From Candidatus Woesearchaeota archaeon (GTDB lineage Archaea > Nanobdellota > Nanobdellia > Woesearchaeales > WJKL01), in NCBI GenBank assembly GCA_014729675.1, contig WJJM01000055.1, forward strand, positions 326-64,325: a DNA stretch of 64,000 bases, in the 5' to 3' direction. The notes beneath the pieces were generated by a model. The model had not been told where the DNA came from, did not search any database, and saw nothing but the letters and a program-made list of their open reading frames with translations. Made by a program: the position numbers and the translations under genes. Numbering within the stretch: the stretch's first letter is position 1; the number at the start of each line of letters is the position of its first letter. This document shows, in pieces, positions 19,651 through 31,163 of this stretch.

Positions 19651-20067
19651 GGGTAGGGGGGAGCTTAACTCACGGTGAATATAAGAAAGGCTTTTAACAG
19701 CCTGTCTTAATGCTGAGGAAAGTCCGCCCACCATCAAAGGCCGCTTCCATAAGGAAGATGGAGAGATCCATGGCTCTGGCTAAGAAACGGAACAGCTTTT
19801 GGATAAGATGAAAATGGTGAAGCTTTGCTGCGAAGCAAGTGAGACCCCATAGATGTTTCCAAAAGTGCTGGTGAAACGGCGAAACCCTGTCGAAAGCCTG
19901 ACTTTCGGAAGGTCCAAGGAACTTTGTTCCTGAGGAGCTGGCTGGTGCAAGTATCGAGGATACGCTAAGTCGAATGTTAAGGAAGGCTGCTTATGGCAGC
20001 GAATGCAAATTATCGTTCGCTTGATCGTAAAGCCTTACAGAAGGCGGCTTATATCTTCCCTACACCT
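19651..20067 (+). ncRNA. rnpB: RNase P RNA
   Basis: P4 hallmarks GAGGAAAGTCCGCCCACC and ACAGAAGGCGGCTTAT. The 5' GTAGGGGGG pairs with the 3' CTTCCCTAC (P1). No ORF in the region. Confidence 0.8.
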
Positions 20068-20114: not shown

Positions 20115-20288
20115 ATGGCAAACAATAAGATACAGATGCCCAGTTCCATGGGCGGACTTATAAGATATTTTGACGAATATAAGAGCAAGCTTACATTTAA
20201 ACCAGGGCACGTCATAGTGCTTTGCGTCGTAGTGATGATGCTGATAATTCTTCTTCATATATACGGCCCGGCGGTGTTAGGTCGATAA
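20115..20288 (+). CDS. secG: preprotein translocase subunit Sec61beta (SecG), 57 aa; missed by the ORF track
   Basis: MANNKIQMPSSMGGLIRYFDEYKSKLTFKPGHVIVLCVVVMMLIILLHIYGPAVLGR. The GLIRYFDE motif followed by a C-terminal TM is typical of archaeal Sec61beta. Confidence 0.7.
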   Translation: MANNKIQMPSSMGGLIRYFDEYKSKLTFKPGHVIVLCVVVMMLIILLHIYGPAVLGR

Positions 20289-20289
20289 G

Positions 20290-20631
20290 ATGATGCCCGG
20301 AATGAATCCCAAGATGATGAAGCAGGCCATGAAAAAGATGGGCATGCAACAAGAAGACATAGATGCTGTTGAAGTCATAATCAAATGTCCGGACAAGGAG
20401 CTGGTCATCACTGATCCCACTGTGGCTAAAGTCAAGGCTATGGGAACAGAGCAGATAACTGTGAGCGGAGAGATTACTGAAAGGGAATTATCTTCAGAGC
20501 CTGAGATAAGCGAAGAAGACATAAATACAGTTGTTGAGCAGACAGGAGCTTCTGAAGAAGAGGCTGAAAAAGCATTGGAAGAAGTGGAAGGAGACATCGC
20601 TGCAGCCATAATCAACCTTAAGAGCGAGTGA
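20290..20631 (+). CDS. nac: nascent polypeptide-associated complex protein (NAC alpha, NAC + UBA domains)
   Basis: MGM...DAVEVIIKCPDKELVI NAC domain plus a C-terminal UBA-like EEEAEKALEEVEGDIAAAIINL. Confidence 0.8.
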   Translation: MMPGMNPKMMKQAMKKMGMQQEDIDAVEVIIKCPDKELVITDPTVAKVKAMGTEQITVSGEITERELSSEPEISEEDINTVVEQTGASEEEAEKALEEVEGDIAAAIINLKSE

Positions 20632-20686
20632 TTCTTATATTGTTTTTAGCACAAGATTTTTATATGCTTAGAGCTATTATCGGGGT

Positions 20687-21172
20687 ATGGAACAGTTCCA
20701 GTCAGCAAGAGAGGATGCGAAGAAGAATATAAAGCTGGCAGACCATATGATCACTATTACATATCCCCTTATAAAGGATTCGAAGCTTCTATTGGCTGTG
20801 ATGGAGAATCTTTTTCTTGCATATACGAACGCTATGAATTCTATACTGTATTATGACCGACTTTTCAAGAGGATACCTGCATTTCCAGACACTTTTGAAT
20901 GTAAGCTGAGGATGTTCAGGCAGAAATGCATGTTAAAACACAACCTTTCAAAGAATTTTGCCAATGAGATACAGGAGATAAAGGAAATAATGGAAGAGCA
21001 CAGGAAAAGTCCAGTAGAGTTCAGCAGGAAGGACAAGTTTGTAATATGCTCTGACAACTACAATATGAGGTCCTTAAGCCCTGGAGACATAAGAAGATAC
21101 ATAGAGAAAGCAAAACTTTTTATACAAGCCATGGATAATATAGTGGGTAAGAATGACAGATTATTTAGATAA
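20687..21172 (+). CDS. hypothetical protein, paralog 1 of a tandem pair upstream of minD
   Basis: Shares the N-terminal pattern K.aDHm..ityPli.dskLLlaVMENlflaytNaMnsiL with the next ORF. Confidence 0.5.
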   Translation: MEQFQSAREDAKKNIKLADHMITITYPLIKDSKLLLAVMENLFLAYTNAMNSILYYDRLFKRIPAFPDTFECKLRMFRQKCMLKHNLSKNFANEIQEIKEIMEEHRKSPVEFSRKDKFVICSDNYNMRSLSPGDIRRYIEKAKLFIQAMDNIVGKNDRLFR

Positions 21173-21602
21173 TGCCAAGGATGAGATGAAAAGAGTGGAT
21201 CACCTTCTTTTTGTAAGCCTGAAATATACAAGGACAGTTGACGTAATAATAAGCGTTATGGAGAGGATGATCAGCTGTATAGACAACTGCATGGATGCTC
21301 TTCTTGAAAAGGTTAAAAGAAGAAGAAAGACACTGGAAGTGCCTACAACTCCAAGACAGAAAGCAGATCTTGTGAGAGATATATTTTCAGATGATGAGAT
21401 TATAACAAGCATGATGGATTTTTATCTTCATCTAAGAAATCTAGTGCAGGCAAAATACACAAAAAGAGAGGAATACAGAAGACACGTTACTATGATCGCT
21501 GAGGTAAAAGGAAGAACAGTGGAAGTGGAGATAGATGACCTTAATGAGTTCTATCTTAAACTGAAAGATTTTCTTGAATACATCCAAAGGGAGAAATTAT
21601 GA
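21153..21602 (+). CDS. hypothetical protein, paralog 2 (overlaps the previous gene by 20 nt and minD by 4 nt)
   Basis: KRVDHLLFVSLKYTRTVDVIISVMERMISCIDNCMDALL parallels paralog 1; REEYRRH is a possible R-x5-H motif. Confidence 0.5.
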   Translation: MTDYLDNAKDEMKRVDHLLFVSLKYTRTVDVIISVMERMISCIDNCMDALLEKVKRRRKTLEVPTTPRQKADLVRDIFSDDEIITSMMDFYLHLRNLVQAKYTKREEYRRHVTMIAEVKGRTVEVEIDDLNEFYLKLKDFLEYIQREKL

Positions 21603-22345
21603 CCAAGTTTATCGCTGTAACAGGGGGAAAAGGCGGAGTAGGAAAGACTACAACTGCATTGAATCTAGGTACAGCCCTTAATGGATTTGGAAGAGATGTG
21701 ATAGTTCTTGACGGCAACCTGAACAATCCGGATATAGGCCTCCATCTTGGGCATTCCAATGTTGAAGTTACTTTTCATGATGCATTGTCGGGAGATGCAG
21801 ATATAAGGGATGCAATATACAGGCATACTTCAGGCGTGAGGGTCATCCCCGGAGACATAAGAGGCAGGAAAGTCAAGGTCAAAGGGATGGACAAGATATG
21901 CAAAAGGCTTGAAGGCATCAGCGAAGTAGTGGTTATGGACTGTCCTGCAGACATGGGTCTGAGCAAATATGCTGAAGAGGCTCTTGTTGTGGCTGTTCCT
22001 GAGACAACATCAGTTACTGCTGCGATGAGGACGATAAAAAAGCTTGAAGATAAGAACATAACTGTATTGGGAGTTGTACTCAATAGGGTCAATGGAGACG
22101 AGCATGAGATGTCTGTAGACAATGTCGAAGCATTATTAGAAAAGCCAGTTATAGGAGTAATACCTGAGAGCGATGATGTCAGGGAATCACAGTCTATAAA
22201 ATATCCTGTTGCATATTCTCATGCTGATTCAGAAGCCACTACAGGATTTAAGTCCTTGGCTGCACACCTTATAGGAGAAAGATACAATATCAAAAGCGAG
22301 AAAGGGATATATAATTCTTTTCTTAGAAAGATGGGCTATAAATGA
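21599..22345 (+). CDS. minD: MinD/ParA-family P-loop ATPase (archaeal MinD-like)
   Basis: Deviant Walker A GGKGGVGKTTTA; ~250 aa. Confidence 0.85.
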   Translation: MTKFIAVTGGKGGVGKTTTALNLGTALNGFGRDVIVLDGNLNNPDIGLHLGHSNVEVTFHDALSGDADIRDAIYRHTSGVRVIPGDIRGRKVKVKGMDKICKRLEGISEVVVMDCPADMGLSKYAEEALVVAVPETTSVTAAMRTIKKLEDKNITVLGVVLNRVNGDEHEMSVDNVEALLEKPVIGVIPESDDVRESQSIKYPVAYSHADSEATTGFKSLAAHLIGERYNIKSEKGIYNSFLRKMGYK

Positions 22346-22842
22346 ATGACCTCAGGAAAAAGTGGAGCGAGAAAGAGATTTCTGAAGCCAAGAAGATAAT
22401 AGATTCAAGACATCTTAAAGATAAGAGCAGGTCACTGGCTCACATGAACAAGGTGATATACTGGACAGTCCTCCTTGTTATGATCATAGGGAATTTTATA
22501 GTTTCAATGGCATTGATACCTTTCCTGCTGCTGATAGATAAGCTTACATTAAATGTTGTGATAGTCTTTATAGGGCTTGGGATGGGGTTGCTGTTCAATC
22601 TTCTGATAAATGATATAGAGCATATTGATGAGAAGCATCATTATATTGCAGCAATAATGCTTCCTTTGTTAGCTGTTGTTAATTTTTTCCTTATGATGGA
22701 AGTTTCTGAATATATAGGAAACAAATTGGAGCTGCCAGTAGTGAGAGAAAGTGCATTGTTGATAGGATTGCTATATGCTGCTGCATTCCTGCTGCCTTAT
22801 CTTAGAAATGTTTTCTTTAGCGGCAAGCTTAAGTATAAATGA
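22342..22842 (+). CDS. membrane protein (about 4 TM), last gene of the minD operon
   Basis: 4-nt overlap with the minD stop; hydrophobic segments. Confidence 0.55.
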   Translation: MNDLRKKWSEKEISEAKKIIDSRHLKDKSRSLAHMNKVIYWTVLLVMIIGNFIVSMALIPFLLLIDKLTLNVVIVFIGLGMGLLFNLLINDIEHIDEKHHYIAAIMLPLLAVVNFFLMMEVSEYIGNKLELPVVRESALLIGLLYAAAFLLPYLRNVFFSGKLKYK

Positions 22843-22886
22843 TAGTTTTAAAATTGCTCTGCAATTAATATTCAAAAATAATAATC

Positions 22887-23020
22887 TCTAAGTCAGATAA
22901 ACTGCCTTGCGATTAAGATTATTCAATAATAATAATCTATAGGTCAACAAGTTGTCTGAAATCAGGATTTTCAATCTTAATCTCTAAGTAAGCATAGCCG
23001 CCTTGCAATTATTATCTAAT
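22887..23020. repeat. dispersed intergenic repeat, A-type, two tandem degenerate copies (aataataatctctaagt.ag...gccttgc.att)
   Basis: Similar to 54237-54300. Confidence 0.6.
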
Positions 23021-23189
23021 AATAATTTATAATGCTCGCTTTGCTCGCTACTATACCCAAAGAAGACTGCCTATCGGCAGTTAGCTCCTCCCCTTTTGGT
23101 GCAGAATTATCTTTCTTTTTCCCACCCAAGTTTTAGTGCTCTGTGCTTCACTAAGATTGGATTTAGTGTAAGTCGTTAATTTCTGGCTT

Positions 23190-23285
23190 CGATTAAACTA
23201 ACTGAGCAGTCAGATTATCTGCGGAGTGAGACTGTACACAAGCGCAGCGAGTGCCATGGATGGGATCAAATATCTTTAAGCTTAA
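23190..23285. repeat. dispersed intergenic repeat, B-type, inverted relative to the copy at 54300-54385
   Basis: The reverse complement tccatggcactcgctgcgcttgtgtacagtctcactccgcagataatctgactgctcagttagtttaatcgaagcc aligns with 54301 ctatggcactcacagcttcgctgttcgtgcacagtctctcacttcagataatctgactgctaagttcgttcaatctaagcc. Confidence 0.7.
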
Positions 23286-23368
23286 ATCCGGCATATTTTT
23301 TATTATTATGCAGAAATCTTTTTCTGAAAAGTAAGTTTTATAAGTTATCAGTTAATTCTTTGGCCCAT

Positions 23369-23445
23369 GGTGGCTGTGGTGTAGTCCGGCAGCACATAAG
23401 ACTGTGGATCTTATAGCCCGGGTTCAAATCCCGGCAGCCACCCCA
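23369..23445 (+). tRNA. tRNA-His (GTG) with G-1 and an encoded CCA
   Basis: Acceptor GTGGCTG/CAGCCAC, extra 5' G paired to discriminator C, anticodon loop CTGTGGA, T-loop TTCAAAT, then CCA. Confidence 0.8.
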
Positions 23446-30782: not shown

Positions 30783-31065
30783 AAAATAAGCAGGCGAGCA
30801 CGCCCGAAAATGGACACACTTCAAGCTTATTGGTTAACCCTGGAGTATTCTCGGTTCCGCTACCCTATGAGCATCGACACATATAGTTAGCGCTGCTCCC
30901 GTCAGGGCCTGACGCGGTTCCTATGAGCATCGATCCCATAGGACAGAACTTCATTGGCAACTCCAAGACCAACAGACTTGAAATATGCCTCTTTCCAGGC
31001 TTTGACTCCATCATAAAGCCCATTTATGGTTACAGTACAGGGCTAATGCACCAGCCTAGCTCGCC
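30783..31065 (-). ncRNA. ffs: signal recognition particle RNA (7S/SRP RNA), minus strand
   Basis: The minus-strand sequence GCGUCAGGCCCUGACGGGAGCAGCGC matches the helix-8 pattern GUCAGG-stem-tetraloop-stem-AGCAGC, with tetraloop UGAC instead of GNRA. The 5' GGCGAGC pairs with the 3' end. About 283 nt with no ORF; the 30593-30817 ORF call is probably spurious. Confidence 0.6.
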
Positions 31066-31163
31066 TAAAAAAAGTAAATTTTAGCATTTTAAAAAGGTTG
31101 TGATTTTGAATCGGGAGAATTATCAGAAAAATCTTAGGATATTGCATTTACTTTATTATATGG

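What the first reader, a model, noticed from the sequence alone, without database searches (positions are those of the whole stretch)
20687..22842. Four-gene operon: two tandem paralogous ~150-aa proteins + MinD-like ATPase + small membrane protein
The genes overlap tightly (20-nt and 4-nt overlaps), indicating translational coupling. Archaeal MinD homologs have no known MinC/MinE partners. The two paralogs share an N-terminal DH...VME helix pattern, one with a possible R-x5-H motif, and the terminal 4-TM protein could anchor the complex. Together they could form an undescribed MinD-dependent positioning or membrane-associated machine.
Basis: inference. Interest (0 to 1): 0.55.

Follow-up and report, generated by a model that had tools for sequence, protein, structure and literature searches.

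The report
HEPN-fold protein pair beside archaeal MinD
In hundreds of tiny uncultured Woesearchaeota archaea, two uncharacterised sister proteins with an RNA-enzyme-like (HEPN) fold sit in one tightly packed operon, often with a MinD positioning ATPase and a small membrane protein, which makes them the best available candidates for the long-missing partners of archaeal MinD.

Summary
Four co-directional ORFs sit at 20687-22842 and overlap by 20, 4 and 4 nt. The two ~150-aa proteins, A and B, are true paralogs (hhalign 96%, E 5e-9). The third is an archaeal MinD. The fourth has four predicted transmembrane helices.

The window comes from a Candidatus Woesearchaeota (DPANN) contig. A, B and the membrane protein match no Pfam, NCBIfam, PADLOC or PDB sequence. 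AlphaFold models of A and B are confident (pLDDT 88-89). Foldseek retrieves mainly HEPN proteins (AF0298, HepT), so they form a new HEPN-fold family.

The gene order recurs in at least 578 species genomes, but the module is modular.
- B is the constant element.
- A is usually present.
- MinD is adjacent in 41-54% of loci.
- The membrane protein occurs in only one of the two locus sets.
- Sec61beta-NAC lies immediately upstream in both sets.

MinD lacks its C-terminal amphipathic tail only where the membrane protein is encoded (16/33 versus 0/31 loci). This suggests the membrane protein can act as an alternative anchor.

Best reading (confidence 0.4): a vertically inherited, membrane-associated MinD partner module. 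Its biochemical role is unknown and may be RNA- or ribosome-related.

The parts
20687..21172 (+). Paralog A, 161 aa, basic (pI 9.4), HEPN-fold protein. It is the less conserved member of the pair.
   Evidence: ORF. No Pfam or NCBIfam hit. 243 homologs, all 'hypothetical', Woesearchaeota/Nanoarchaeota. AF2 pLDDT 87.9, pTM 0.84. Foldseek top hit 2hsb (AF0298 HEPN), E 6.7e-4, TM 0.65/0.81. Residue conservation; pI.
21153..21602 (+). Paralog B, 149 aa, HEPN-fold protein. It is the constant core of the module.
   Evidence: ORF. 100% identical to GF336_05755, Ca. Woesearchaeota. 452 clusters at 50% identity in 1.8 billion proteins. At least 578 species genomes. AF2 pLDDT 88.9. Foldseek top 12 hits are all HepT/HEPN toxins. 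Present in every related locus by construction of the searches.
21189..21242 (+). B residues 13-30, 'KRVDH..VSLKYTRTVD': end of helix 1 and the helix1-helix2 loop. This is the strongest conserved patch.
   Evidence: R14 96%, H17 98%, L23/K24/Y25 98%, T26 94%, R27 93%, T28 97%, D30 96% over 303 distinct sequences. Secondary structure.
21468..21494 (+). B residues 106-114, 'EEYRRHVTM': first strands of the beta-meander inserted between core helices 3 and 4. This is the topological place of the HEPN catalytic motif.
   Evidence: E107 96%, Y/F108 97%, R109 95%, R/K110 97%, but H111 only 60% and R105 only 35%. A has the matching E111 94%, F112 99%, R114 90%. Position of the HEPN motif per PMC3710099.
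21599..22345 (+). Archaeal MinD ATPase, 248 aa, with the deviant Walker A GKGGVGKT.
   Evidence: TIGR01969 minD_arch 206.8 bits (cut-off 201.75), E 3e-61. Pfam CbiA/ParA/AAA_31. Walker A read from the translation.
22304..22342 (+). MinD C-terminal tail 'GIYNSFLRKMGYK', resembling a membrane-targeting amphipathic helix.
   Evidence: Translation. Similar tails in 17/33 Woesearchaeota-set and 31/31 second-set operon MinDs. Function inferred by analogy with bacterial MinD and H. volcanii MinD4 (established knowledge; preprint).
22342..22842 (+). Small membrane protein, 166 aa. It has a cytoplasmic basic N-terminal segment (residues 1-37), four hydrophobic helices, and a conserved acidic/His loop 'DIEHxxxxHH' predicted to be cytoplasmic.
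   Evidence: Hydropathy and charge distribution. Alignment of 33 orthologs. 86 homologs, all Woesearchaeota/Nanoarchaeia, none with a Pfam domain. No Pfam or PDB match.
20115..20631 (+). Sec61beta (20115-20288) and NAC (20290-20631): conserved immediate upstream neighbours, probably the same transcription unit in many relatives.
   Evidence: Pfam Sec61_beta 5.8e-12; NAC 7e-12 plus UBA. NAC->A gap <=60 nt in 34/48 and 34/46 loci, with some overlaps. Sec61beta->NAC median gap 4 and 1 nt.
20657..20665 (+). TATA-like element TTTTTATAT about 25 nt upstream of the A start codon. This is a possible archaeal promoter giving a leaderless or short-leader mRNA.
   Evidence: Read from the sequence. Inference only; the promoter scanner is bacterial-type and uninformative here.

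Best explanation
The locus is a vertically inherited housekeeping module specific to Woesearchaeota/Nanoarchaeota. It is built around two paralogous HEPN-fold proteins that work with an archaeal MinD ATPase at the cytoplasmic face of the membrane.

Proposed mechanism:
1. A and B form a heterodimer. B carries the conserved polar site: R14-x2-H17, K24-Y-T-R-T-x-D30, R38, E107-[YF]-R109-[RK]. A is the degenerate partner.
2. ATP-bound MinD binds the membrane through its C-terminal amphipathic tail. In Woesearchaeota it can also bind through the 4-TM protein, whose basic N-terminal segment, conserved His/acidic loop and C-terminus are all predicted to be cytoplasmic.
3. MinD thereby recruits or positions the A/B dimer.
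4. A/B most likely binds a phosphate-rich ligand such as RNA, the ribosome or a nucleotide.

Shown here: gene structure, paralogy, fold, family-wide residue conservation, neighbourhood statistics, and the complementarity between the MinD tail and the TM gene.

Inferred: every physical contact, the heterodimer, the ligand and the cellular role.
For: Four overlapping ORFs. The overlaps are conserved across two divergent locus sets.

A and B are paralogs with the same confident fold. Both retrieve HEPN structures from several HEPN families. There are faint sequence echoes: HEPN_AbiU2 E 3.3e-4 in 2 A members and HEPN_RiboL-PSP in 1 B member. HEPN proteins characteristically act as dimers (established knowledge).

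The B-MinD junction is conserved in both sets (31/35 and 21/44 overlapping). MinD is adjacent in 30/73 loci of set 1 and 27/50 of set 2, and lies further downstream in 7 more.

The four-gene form is scattered over the whole B tree, so it is probably ancestral.

MinD lacks its amphipathic tail in 16/33 loci where the TM gene is present. It never lacks the tail (0/31) where no TM gene is found. Fisher p = 3e-6, not corrected for phylogeny.

The TM homolog stays two genes from A-B in a rearranged locus, L082.

Distance matrices of B, MinD and TM correlate with each other (r 0.79-0.82) better than with NAC (0.41-0.60). Partial correlations controlling for NAC are 0.73-0.76.

One MinD in the module carries a LAGLIDADG intein at the P-loop region.

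No PADLOC or PHROG hit for A, B or TM; MinD has only weak PADLOC hits (PDC-M28B, E 1.4e-5). The fixed syntenic position argues for a cellular rather than a mobile or defence role.
Against: MinD is missing from the locus in 43/73 Woesearchaeota loci, where B abuts TM directly. It is missing from 16/50 loci of the second set. A/B therefore need not depend on an adjacent MinD. Whether those genomes encode MinD elsewhere could not be checked.

The TM gene is absent from the second set.

Linkage of A/B to Sec61beta-NAC is about as tight as linkage to MinD.

No interaction was modelled or measured.

Mirror-tree correlations and the Fisher test are confounded by shared ancestry.

Foldseek E-values are marginal (6.7e-4 to 0.1), and four-helix bundles are prone to spurious matches.
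Confidence: 0.4

Rival explanations
1. A/B is primarily an RNA- or ribosome-directed factor, possibly an RNase of the AF0298-like 'alternative site' HEPN type. It belongs functionally with Sec61beta and NAC, that is, with co-translational events at the ribosome exit or translocon. MinD and the TM protein are frequent but dispensable add-ons.
For: HEPN fold.

The best structural match of A is AF0298. PMC3710099 describes an alternative site for that family, made of an N-terminal conserved His plus the basic residue after helix 3. A and B share exactly a helix-1 'DH' and an 'E-[FY]-x-[RK]' after helix 3.

Sec61beta-NAC-A-B is conserved in both sets, while everything downstream is scrambled in set 2.

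NAC and A overlap in several loci.

Some B relatives carry long Lys-rich tails typical of polyanion binders.

B is retained where MinD, TM or A are lost.
Against: No Rx4-6H motif is conserved in either paralog. Spatial proximity of H17 and R109 could not be checked because no coordinates were available. B itself is not basic (pI 6.3; family median 8.5). The conserved B-MinD overlaps and the MinD-tail/TM complementarity are not explained. The Sec61beta-NAC adjacency may be inherited synteny within one phylum.
Confidence: 0.27
2. The genes are merely neighbours in a slowly rearranging housekeeping region (gyrA, THUMP methyltransferase, RNase P RNA, Sec61beta, NAC ... tRNA-His, S13 operon). They do not act together.
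For: All related loci come from one phylum. Flanking genes are conserved as well. Every combination of A, MinD and TM presence or absence occurs.
Against: 4-nt and ~20-nt overlaps are maintained across 40-60% protein identity. A-B-MinD stays together in set 2, where the downstream context is scrambled. TM stays near A-B in the rearranged L082. The MinD tail is lost only where the TM gene is present.
Confidence: 0.12
3. A HEPN-type toxin-antitoxin or anti-virus defence cassette, with a HEPN toxin and MinD/TM as effector or regulator.
For: HEPN fold. Closest structures are HepT toxins. HEPN proteins paired with small membrane proteins occur in defence systems (own knowledge, not tested here).
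Against: No nucleotidyltransferase partner. No PADLOC or PHROG match for A, B or TM. The position is fixed between NAC and the S13 operon in hundreds of species. It is single copy. The tree is congruent with vertical descent. No conserved Rx4-6H.
Confidence: 0.03
4. A Get3-like targeting pathway. In this reading the MinD-like SIMIBI ATPase delivers membrane proteins to the 4-TM receptor or insertase, A/B acts as a pre-targeting factor, and the whole is co-expressed with NAC and Sec61beta.
For: Operon context with NAC and Sec61beta. A SIMIBI ATPase next to a small polytopic membrane protein. Weak ArsA_ATPase partial match (30.8 bits).
Against: The ATPase passes the MinD_arch cut-off. At 248 aa it has no room for a Get3 client-binding helical subdomain or a CxxC motif. 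TM and MinD are each dispensable. The TM protein has no match to the Oxa1/Get1 superfamily.
Confidence: 0.05

Closest known systems
Bacterial MinCDE system
   Same: A MinD-family ATPase with deviant Walker A and, in this window, a C-terminal amphipathic tail. Small partner genes are translationally coupled in one operon.
   Different: The partners are HEPN-fold proteins unrelated to MinC or MinE. A dedicated 4-TM protein is present. MinD is facultative in the module. No link to FtsZ has been shown.
Haloferax volcanii MinD4 / MinD2 (archaeal MinD; MinD2-HVO_0596 operon)
   Same: Same archaeal MinD family. MinD4 has a membrane-targeting sequence. MinD2 is co-transcribed with a small protein of unknown function (PMC11588486; preprint 10.1101/2020.04.03.021790).
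   Different: No confirmed partner in Haloferax; the HVO_0596 deletion has no phenotype. Here the neighbours are a conserved HEPN-fold pair and a membrane protein, in a DPANN lineage.
HEPN-MNT toxin-antitoxin pairs (HepT-MntA, AF0298-type HEPN-T)
   Same: Closest folds by Foldseek (2hsb, 7bxo, 6m6w, 5yep, 4nqf, 7ae*). Similar size. There is an insert between helices 2 and 3. As in AF0298, a conserved His lies N-terminal to the usual motif position.
   Different: No MNT partner. No conserved Rx4-6H. A three-stranded beta insert lies between helices 3 and 4. Two tandem paralogs. Fixed chromosomal position. No Pfam HEPN or DUF86 match.
Dip / Arco oscillator of FtsZ-using archaea (DipA GTPase, DipB SepF-like DUF2073, DipC)
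   Same: A recently described archaeal operon that positions a cellular machine at the membrane. It is reported as rare in DPANN, found only in Nanohalarchaeota (PMC13228585; 10.64898/2026.07.23.738820).
   Different: Entirely unrelated proteins: a Ras-like GTPase rather than MinD, with no HEPN and no TM protein. The function of the present module is unknown.
ParA/MinD-type ATPases with lineage-specific adaptors (McdA-McdB, PomXYZ, ParA-ParB)
   Same: General logic: a deviant Walker A ATPase paired with small, fast-evolving, lineage-specific partner proteins encoded next to it (established knowledge).
   Different: The partner fold (HEPN) and the membrane receptor are unprecedented for this class as far as the libraries and papers searched here show.

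Membership tests
Archaeal MinD (TIGR01969 minD_arch; ParA/MinD SIMIBI ATPases) | Full-length match above the curated family cut-off | tested here: met
   206.8 bits vs cut-off 201.75, residues 4-244 on model 2-248. Bacterial MinD equivalog scores only 108.9 vs 212.9.
Archaeal MinD (TIGR01969 minD_arch; ParA/MinD SIMIBI ATPases) | Deviant Walker A with signature lysine (KGGxGK[ST]) | tested here: met
   GGKGGVGKTT at residues 9-18.
Archaeal MinD (TIGR01969 minD_arch; ParA/MinD SIMIBI ATPases) | C-terminal amphipathic membrane-targeting helix | tested here: inconclusive
   The tail GIYNSFLRKMGYK is present and similar to tails in 48 of 64 related operon MinDs. Membrane binding was not testable.
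Bacterial-type Min system (MinCDE) | MinC and/or MinE partner genes | tested here: not met
   Neighbours A, B and TM match no Pfam or NCBIfam family, including MinC and MinE. Only the locus was examined, not the whole genome.
HEPN superfamily | Four-helix up-down core with an insert between helices 2 and 3; structural similarity to solved HEPN domains | tested here: met
   AF2 models with pLDDT 88-89. A vs 2hsb: E 6.7e-4, TM 0.65/0.81. B vs 7bxo_G: E 1.4e-3, TM 0.54/0.60. HEPN entries dominate both hit lists. These are predicted structures, not solved ones.
HEPN superfamily | Rx4-6H motif at the end of helix 3 / start of the helix3-helix4 loop | tested here: not met
   B: R105 35%, H111 60%; [RK]95 at the helix-3 end has no His at +5..+7. 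A: [KR]99-x5-H105 holds in the Woesearchaeota set (H 77% overall), but the His is replaced by Arg in 58% of the second set. PMC3710099 notes that some bona fide HEPN families also lack the motif.
HEPN superfamily | Significant sequence-profile match to a HEPN family | tested here: not met
   No Pfam hit for the window proteins. Only sub-threshold hits in a few relatives: HEPN_AbiU2 3.3e-4 in 2/35; HEPN_RiboL-PSP 0.07 in 1/37. Profiles find no PDB sequence.
HEPN superfamily | Dimerisation forming a composite site; RNase activity | not testable with these tools
   No multimer prediction or biochemistry was available.
HEPN-MNT toxin-antitoxin | Adjacent minimal nucleotidyltransferase (MNT) gene; mobile, patchy distribution | tested here: not met
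   No MNT in the window locus or in the 160 related loci inspected. Fixed syntenic position.
Get3/TRC40 targeting ATPase | Match to the TRC40/GET3/ArsA family at cut-off; helical client-binding subdomain | tested here: not met
   TIGR00345 23.5 bits vs cut-off 135. The protein is only 248 aa.

The most novel reading that the evidence does not exclude
A/B, MinD and the 4-TM protein form a self-contained, HEPN-derived Min-like system of DPANN archaea. The HEPN-fold heterodimer would be the long-sought regulator or cargo adaptor of an archaeal MinD, functionally analogous to MinE/MinC or ParB. The TM protein would be its membrane receptor. The system would organise a membrane-proximal process in space, either the division site or, given the Sec61beta-NAC operon, the co-translational translocation machinery. 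These cells lack the Dip/Arco oscillator.
Probability: 0.15. Interest if true: 0.75.

Novelty: new variant of a known kind. Interest (0 to 1): 0.5.

Why it matters
Archaeal MinD proteins are widespread, yet no partner protein has been established for any of them. In Haloferax they do not position the division ring. This module offers concrete, sequence-defined candidates: a HEPN-fold pair and a membrane protein. They are conserved across hundreds of species, with comparative signals of coupling in the conserved overlaps and in the loss of the MinD membrane tail only where the TM gene exists. The module also defines three protein families with no entry in Pfam or NCBIfam, and a use of the HEPN fold outside defence and toxin-antitoxin contexts. 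Because the proteins are small and soluble apart from TM, the hypothesis can be tested directly in vitro even though the organisms are uncultured.

Tried and rejected
- **Sequence searches.** Pfam, NCBIfam, PADLOC and PHROGs scans of A, B and TM gave nothing significant. Per-member Pfam scans of 37, 35 and 33 homologs gave only faint HEPN echoes for A and B, and nothing consistent for TM: DUF2070 in 7/33 at E>=0.007, RecX_HTH1 in 8/33 at E>=0.016. Profile searches of PDB sequences gave no credible hits; proteasome alpha and NDUFB10 appeared at E>0.05.
- **Prefoldin-like helix/beta-hairpin/helix proteins.** Rejected because Foldseek returned no prefoldin and the models are four-helix bundles.
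- **Get3-like pathway and toxin-antitoxin/defence readings.** Considered and scored low (see rivals).
- **Downstream spacer 22843-23370.** Checked for an RNA gene. Only tRNA-His and weak AT-rich repeats were found.
- **Bacterial-type promoter/terminator scan.** Uninformative for an archaeon.
- **Literature.** Searches found no paper describing this gene cluster. The Dip/Arco papers concern unrelated proteins.
- **Not possible here.** Structure of the TM protein and any multimer prediction (structure jobs exhausted, monomer only). Spatial clustering of conserved residues (no coordinates returned).
Full report
**What is there.** The window carries four + strand ORFs at 20687-21172 (A, 161 aa), 21153-21602 (B, 149 aa), 21599-22345 (248 aa) and 22342-22842 (166 aa). 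They overlap by 20, 4 and 4 nt. B is 100% identical to GF336_05755 of a Candidatus Woesearchaeota MAG, so the window is a DPANN archaeal contig of about 38% GC.

The surroundings are housekeeping genes:
- gyrA
- a THUMP/UPF0020 methyltransferase
- RNase P RNA at 19653-20063
- Sec61beta and NAC immediately upstream
- tRNA-His at 23370-23445
- the S13-S4-S11-RpoD operon downstream

A TATA-like TTTTTATAT lies about 25 nt before the A start codon. Its role as a promoter is inference only.

**The individual proteins.** The third gene is an archaeal MinD. It scores 206.8 bits on TIGR01969, whose cut-off is 201.75. It has the deviant Walker A GKGGVGKT and ends in GIYNSFLRKMGYK, which resembles a MinD membrane-targeting helix.

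The fourth protein has a basic 37-residue N-terminal segment (11 K/R). Hydrophobic stretches at about 38-62, 68-90, 99-123 and 136-157 predict four helices. By the positive-inside rule both termini are cytoplasmic, as is the conserved acidic/His loop 'DIEHxxxxHH'.

A, B and TM match nothing in Pfam, NCBIfam, PADLOC or PHROGs, nor any PDB sequence.

**A and B are paralogs with a HEPN-like fold.** BLASTP sees only 46 aligned residues (E 2e-5). Profiles of 37 B-type and 35 A-type sequences align over their full length (hhalign 96%, E 4.7e-9).

AlphaFold2 models are confident: B has pLDDT 88.9 and pTM 0.84; A has 87.9 and 0.84. They share one architecture:
- two long helices
- a loop with a short helix
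- a third long helix
- a three-stranded beta-meander
- a C-terminal helix

Foldseek against the PDB returns almost only HEPN proteins at the top. For B these are the HepT toxins 7bxo, 6m6w, 6m6u and 5yep (best E 1.4e-3, TM 0.54/0.60). For A they are the AF0298 HEPN domain 2hsb (E 6.7e-4, TM 0.65/0.81), then HepT, 4nqf and the 7ae* HEPN toxins. Faint sequence echoes agree: HEPN_AbiU2 in 2 A members at 3.3e-4 and HEPN_RiboL-PSP in 1 B member.

The helix order fits the HEPN description in PMC3710099, which notes an insert between helices 2 and 3 and a catalytic motif at the end of helix 3.

The defining Rx4-6H motif is not conserved.
- In A, a [KR]99-x5-H105 at the end of helix 3 holds in the Woesearchaeota set. 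In the second set the His is replaced by Arg in 58%.

Both paralogs do conserve a 'DH' in helix 1 (B H17 98%, A H20 91%). Both also conserve an E-[FY]-x-[RK] in the first strand after helix 3 (B E107 96%, R109 95%; A E111 94%, F112 99%, R114 90%).

B has in addition a nearly invariant R14, L23-K-Y-T-R-T28, D30 and R38. This resembles the 'alternative site' that PMC3710099 proposes for AF0298-like HEPN proteins, made of an N-terminal His plus the basic residue of the degenerate motif. I could not test spatial proximity.

I therefore call A and B a new HEPN-fold family. I do not call them members of any described HEPN family.

**Distribution and gene order.** B has 1010 hits in the word-indexed search, and A has 243. 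All named hits are Woesearchaeota or Nanoarchaeota 'hypothetical proteins'. An exhaustive profile search finds 452 clusters at 50% identity. At least 578 GTDB species genomes encode B. TM homologs (86) have the same taxonomic range.

In 80 species loci (set 1), the order is THUMP, Sec61beta, NAC, [A], B, [MinD], TM, S13. Of 73 loci with NAC, B and TM:
- 25 are A-B-MinD-TM
- 22 are A-B-TM
- 21 are B-TM
- 5 are B-MinD-TM

On a neighbour-joining tree of B the four-gene form is scattered throughout. It is therefore probably ancestral, with MinD lost from the locus many times and A lost about four or five times.

TM was not found next to B in L023, L071 and L044. In L045 it follows an inserted RelA_SpoT gene.

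A second, more divergent set of 80 metagenomic loci (set 2) has Sec61beta-NAC-A-B. A is immediately upstream of B in 52/53 loci. MinD is adjacent in 27/50, further downstream in 7/50 and absent from the locus in 16/50. No TM homolog is found in set 2, and the downstream genes are unrelated from locus to locus.

Junctions are conserved:

| Junction | Set 1 | Set 2 |
|---|---|---|
| A->B overlapping | 39/52 | 59/70 |
| B->MinD overlapping | 31/35 | 21/44 |
| MinD->TM <=60 nt | 32/33 | no TM homolog found |
| NAC->A <=60 nt | 34/48 | 34/46 |

In a rearranged relative (L082), a B homolog with a 245-residue Lys-rich tail keeps a weak A-like gene upstream. It also keeps a TM homolog two genes away on the other strand.

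**Signals of functional coupling.**
1. The C-terminal amphipathic tail of MinD is present in all 31 complete MinDs of set 2, which has no TM gene. It is missing in 16 of 33 MinDs of set 1, which has the TM gene. Fisher p = 3e-6. The tail-less MinDs fall in several places on the B tree. The test is not corrected for phylogeny. The simplest reading is that the TM protein can replace the tail as a membrane anchor.
2. Pairwise distance matrices of B, MinD and TM from the same 25 genomes correlate at r 0.79-0.82, against 0.41-0.60 with NAC. Partial correlations controlling for NAC are 0.73-0.76. This is soft evidence.
3. Among the same genome pairs, mean identities are NAC 60%, B 48%, A 44%, MinD 43% and TM 36%.
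4. One module MinD (L099) carries a LAGLIDADG intein.

**Interpretation.** The most likely account (confidence 0.4) is a vertically inherited, membrane-associated MinD partner module. An A/B HEPN-fold heterodimer is recruited or positioned by MinD. MinD reaches the membrane through its own tail or through the TM protein.

Three things suggest a phosphate-rich ligand such as RNA or the ribosome: the HEPN ancestry, the conserved basic/His/acidic site of B, and the Lys-rich tails of some relatives together with the Sec61beta-NAC operon. This part is inference.

The main rival (0.27) is that A/B belongs functionally with Sec61beta-NAC and acts on RNA or ribosomes independently of MinD. That fits B being the only constant element. 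It does not explain the conserved B-MinD overlap or the tail/TM complementarity.

Lower-ranked readings are mere synteny (0.12), a Get3-like targeting pathway (0.05) and a toxin-antitoxin or defence cassette (0.03). The reasons are given in the rival entries.

**Comparison with what is known.** The module works like other ParA/MinD systems in pairing a deviant Walker A ATPase with lineage-specific partners. The partners are not MinC, MinE or ParB.

Archaeal MinDs studied so far (H. volcanii MinD2 and MinD4) have no established partner, and HVO_0596 gave no phenotype.

The recently described Dip/Arco oscillator is built from unrelated proteins. It is reported as rare in DPANN, found only in Nanohalarchaeota.

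No paper in the searchable library describes this cluster.

**Verdict.** I rate it a new variant of a known kind, with moderate interest (0.5).

Noticed in passing
window 19653-20063 (+): Archaeal RNase P RNA (RF00373, 115 bits, E 1.5e-31). It fills the 'empty' gap between the THUMP methyltransferase gene and Sec61beta, directly upstream of the operon region.
   Followed up: partly
window 30792-31066 (-): Archaeal SRP RNA (RF01857, 152.5 bits), about 8 kb downstream of the module.
   Followed up: no
window 22851-23029 (+): Two to three degenerate AT-rich direct repeats of 35-54 nt (63-74% identity, spacing 48/96 nt) in the 528-nt spacer between the TM gene and tRNA-His. No Rfam match.
   Followed up: partly
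P0305, P0310, P0311, P0335; L082:6001-7188: Some B-family proteins carry long Lys/Arg-rich, low-complexity C-terminal tails, up to about 245 residues of KKKVxKK-type repeats. These are reminiscent of polyanion-binding (nucleic acid or ribosome) tails.
   Followed up: partly
L099:6469-8682: A module MinD of 737 aa is interrupted near the P-loop by an intein with a LAGLIDADG homing endonuclease (Pfam LAGLIDADG_3 1e-19; Intein_splicing 7e-8, which is below Pfam's cut-off at 32.9 vs 35.8 bits).
   Followed up: partly
L045:7201-8529: A 442-aa RelA_SpoT-domain gene (Pfam 7.5e-16) is inserted between MinD and the TM gene in one Woesearchaeota genome.
   Followed up: partly
L082:1-567: GyrA of this relative contains an intein (precomputed Pfam Intein_splicing + LAGLIDADG_3).
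   Followed up: no
record titles of L002, L018, L020, L023, L025 and others; L073: Many GTDB records carrying this Woesearchaeota-type locus are titled 'uncultured Methanosarcinales archaeon' (TPA assemblies), and one is titled 'Candidatus Aminicenantes bacterium'. These look like mislabelled or contaminated bins.
   Followed up: no
TM protein residues 8-18 (window 22363-22395) and alignment A3: The cytoplasmic N-terminus of the TM family has a conserved 'L..KGW(S/T)xEEIxKA' motif. It gives repeated sub-threshold matches to the three-helix RecX_HTH1 domain (8/33 members). It may be a small docking domain.
   Followed up: no
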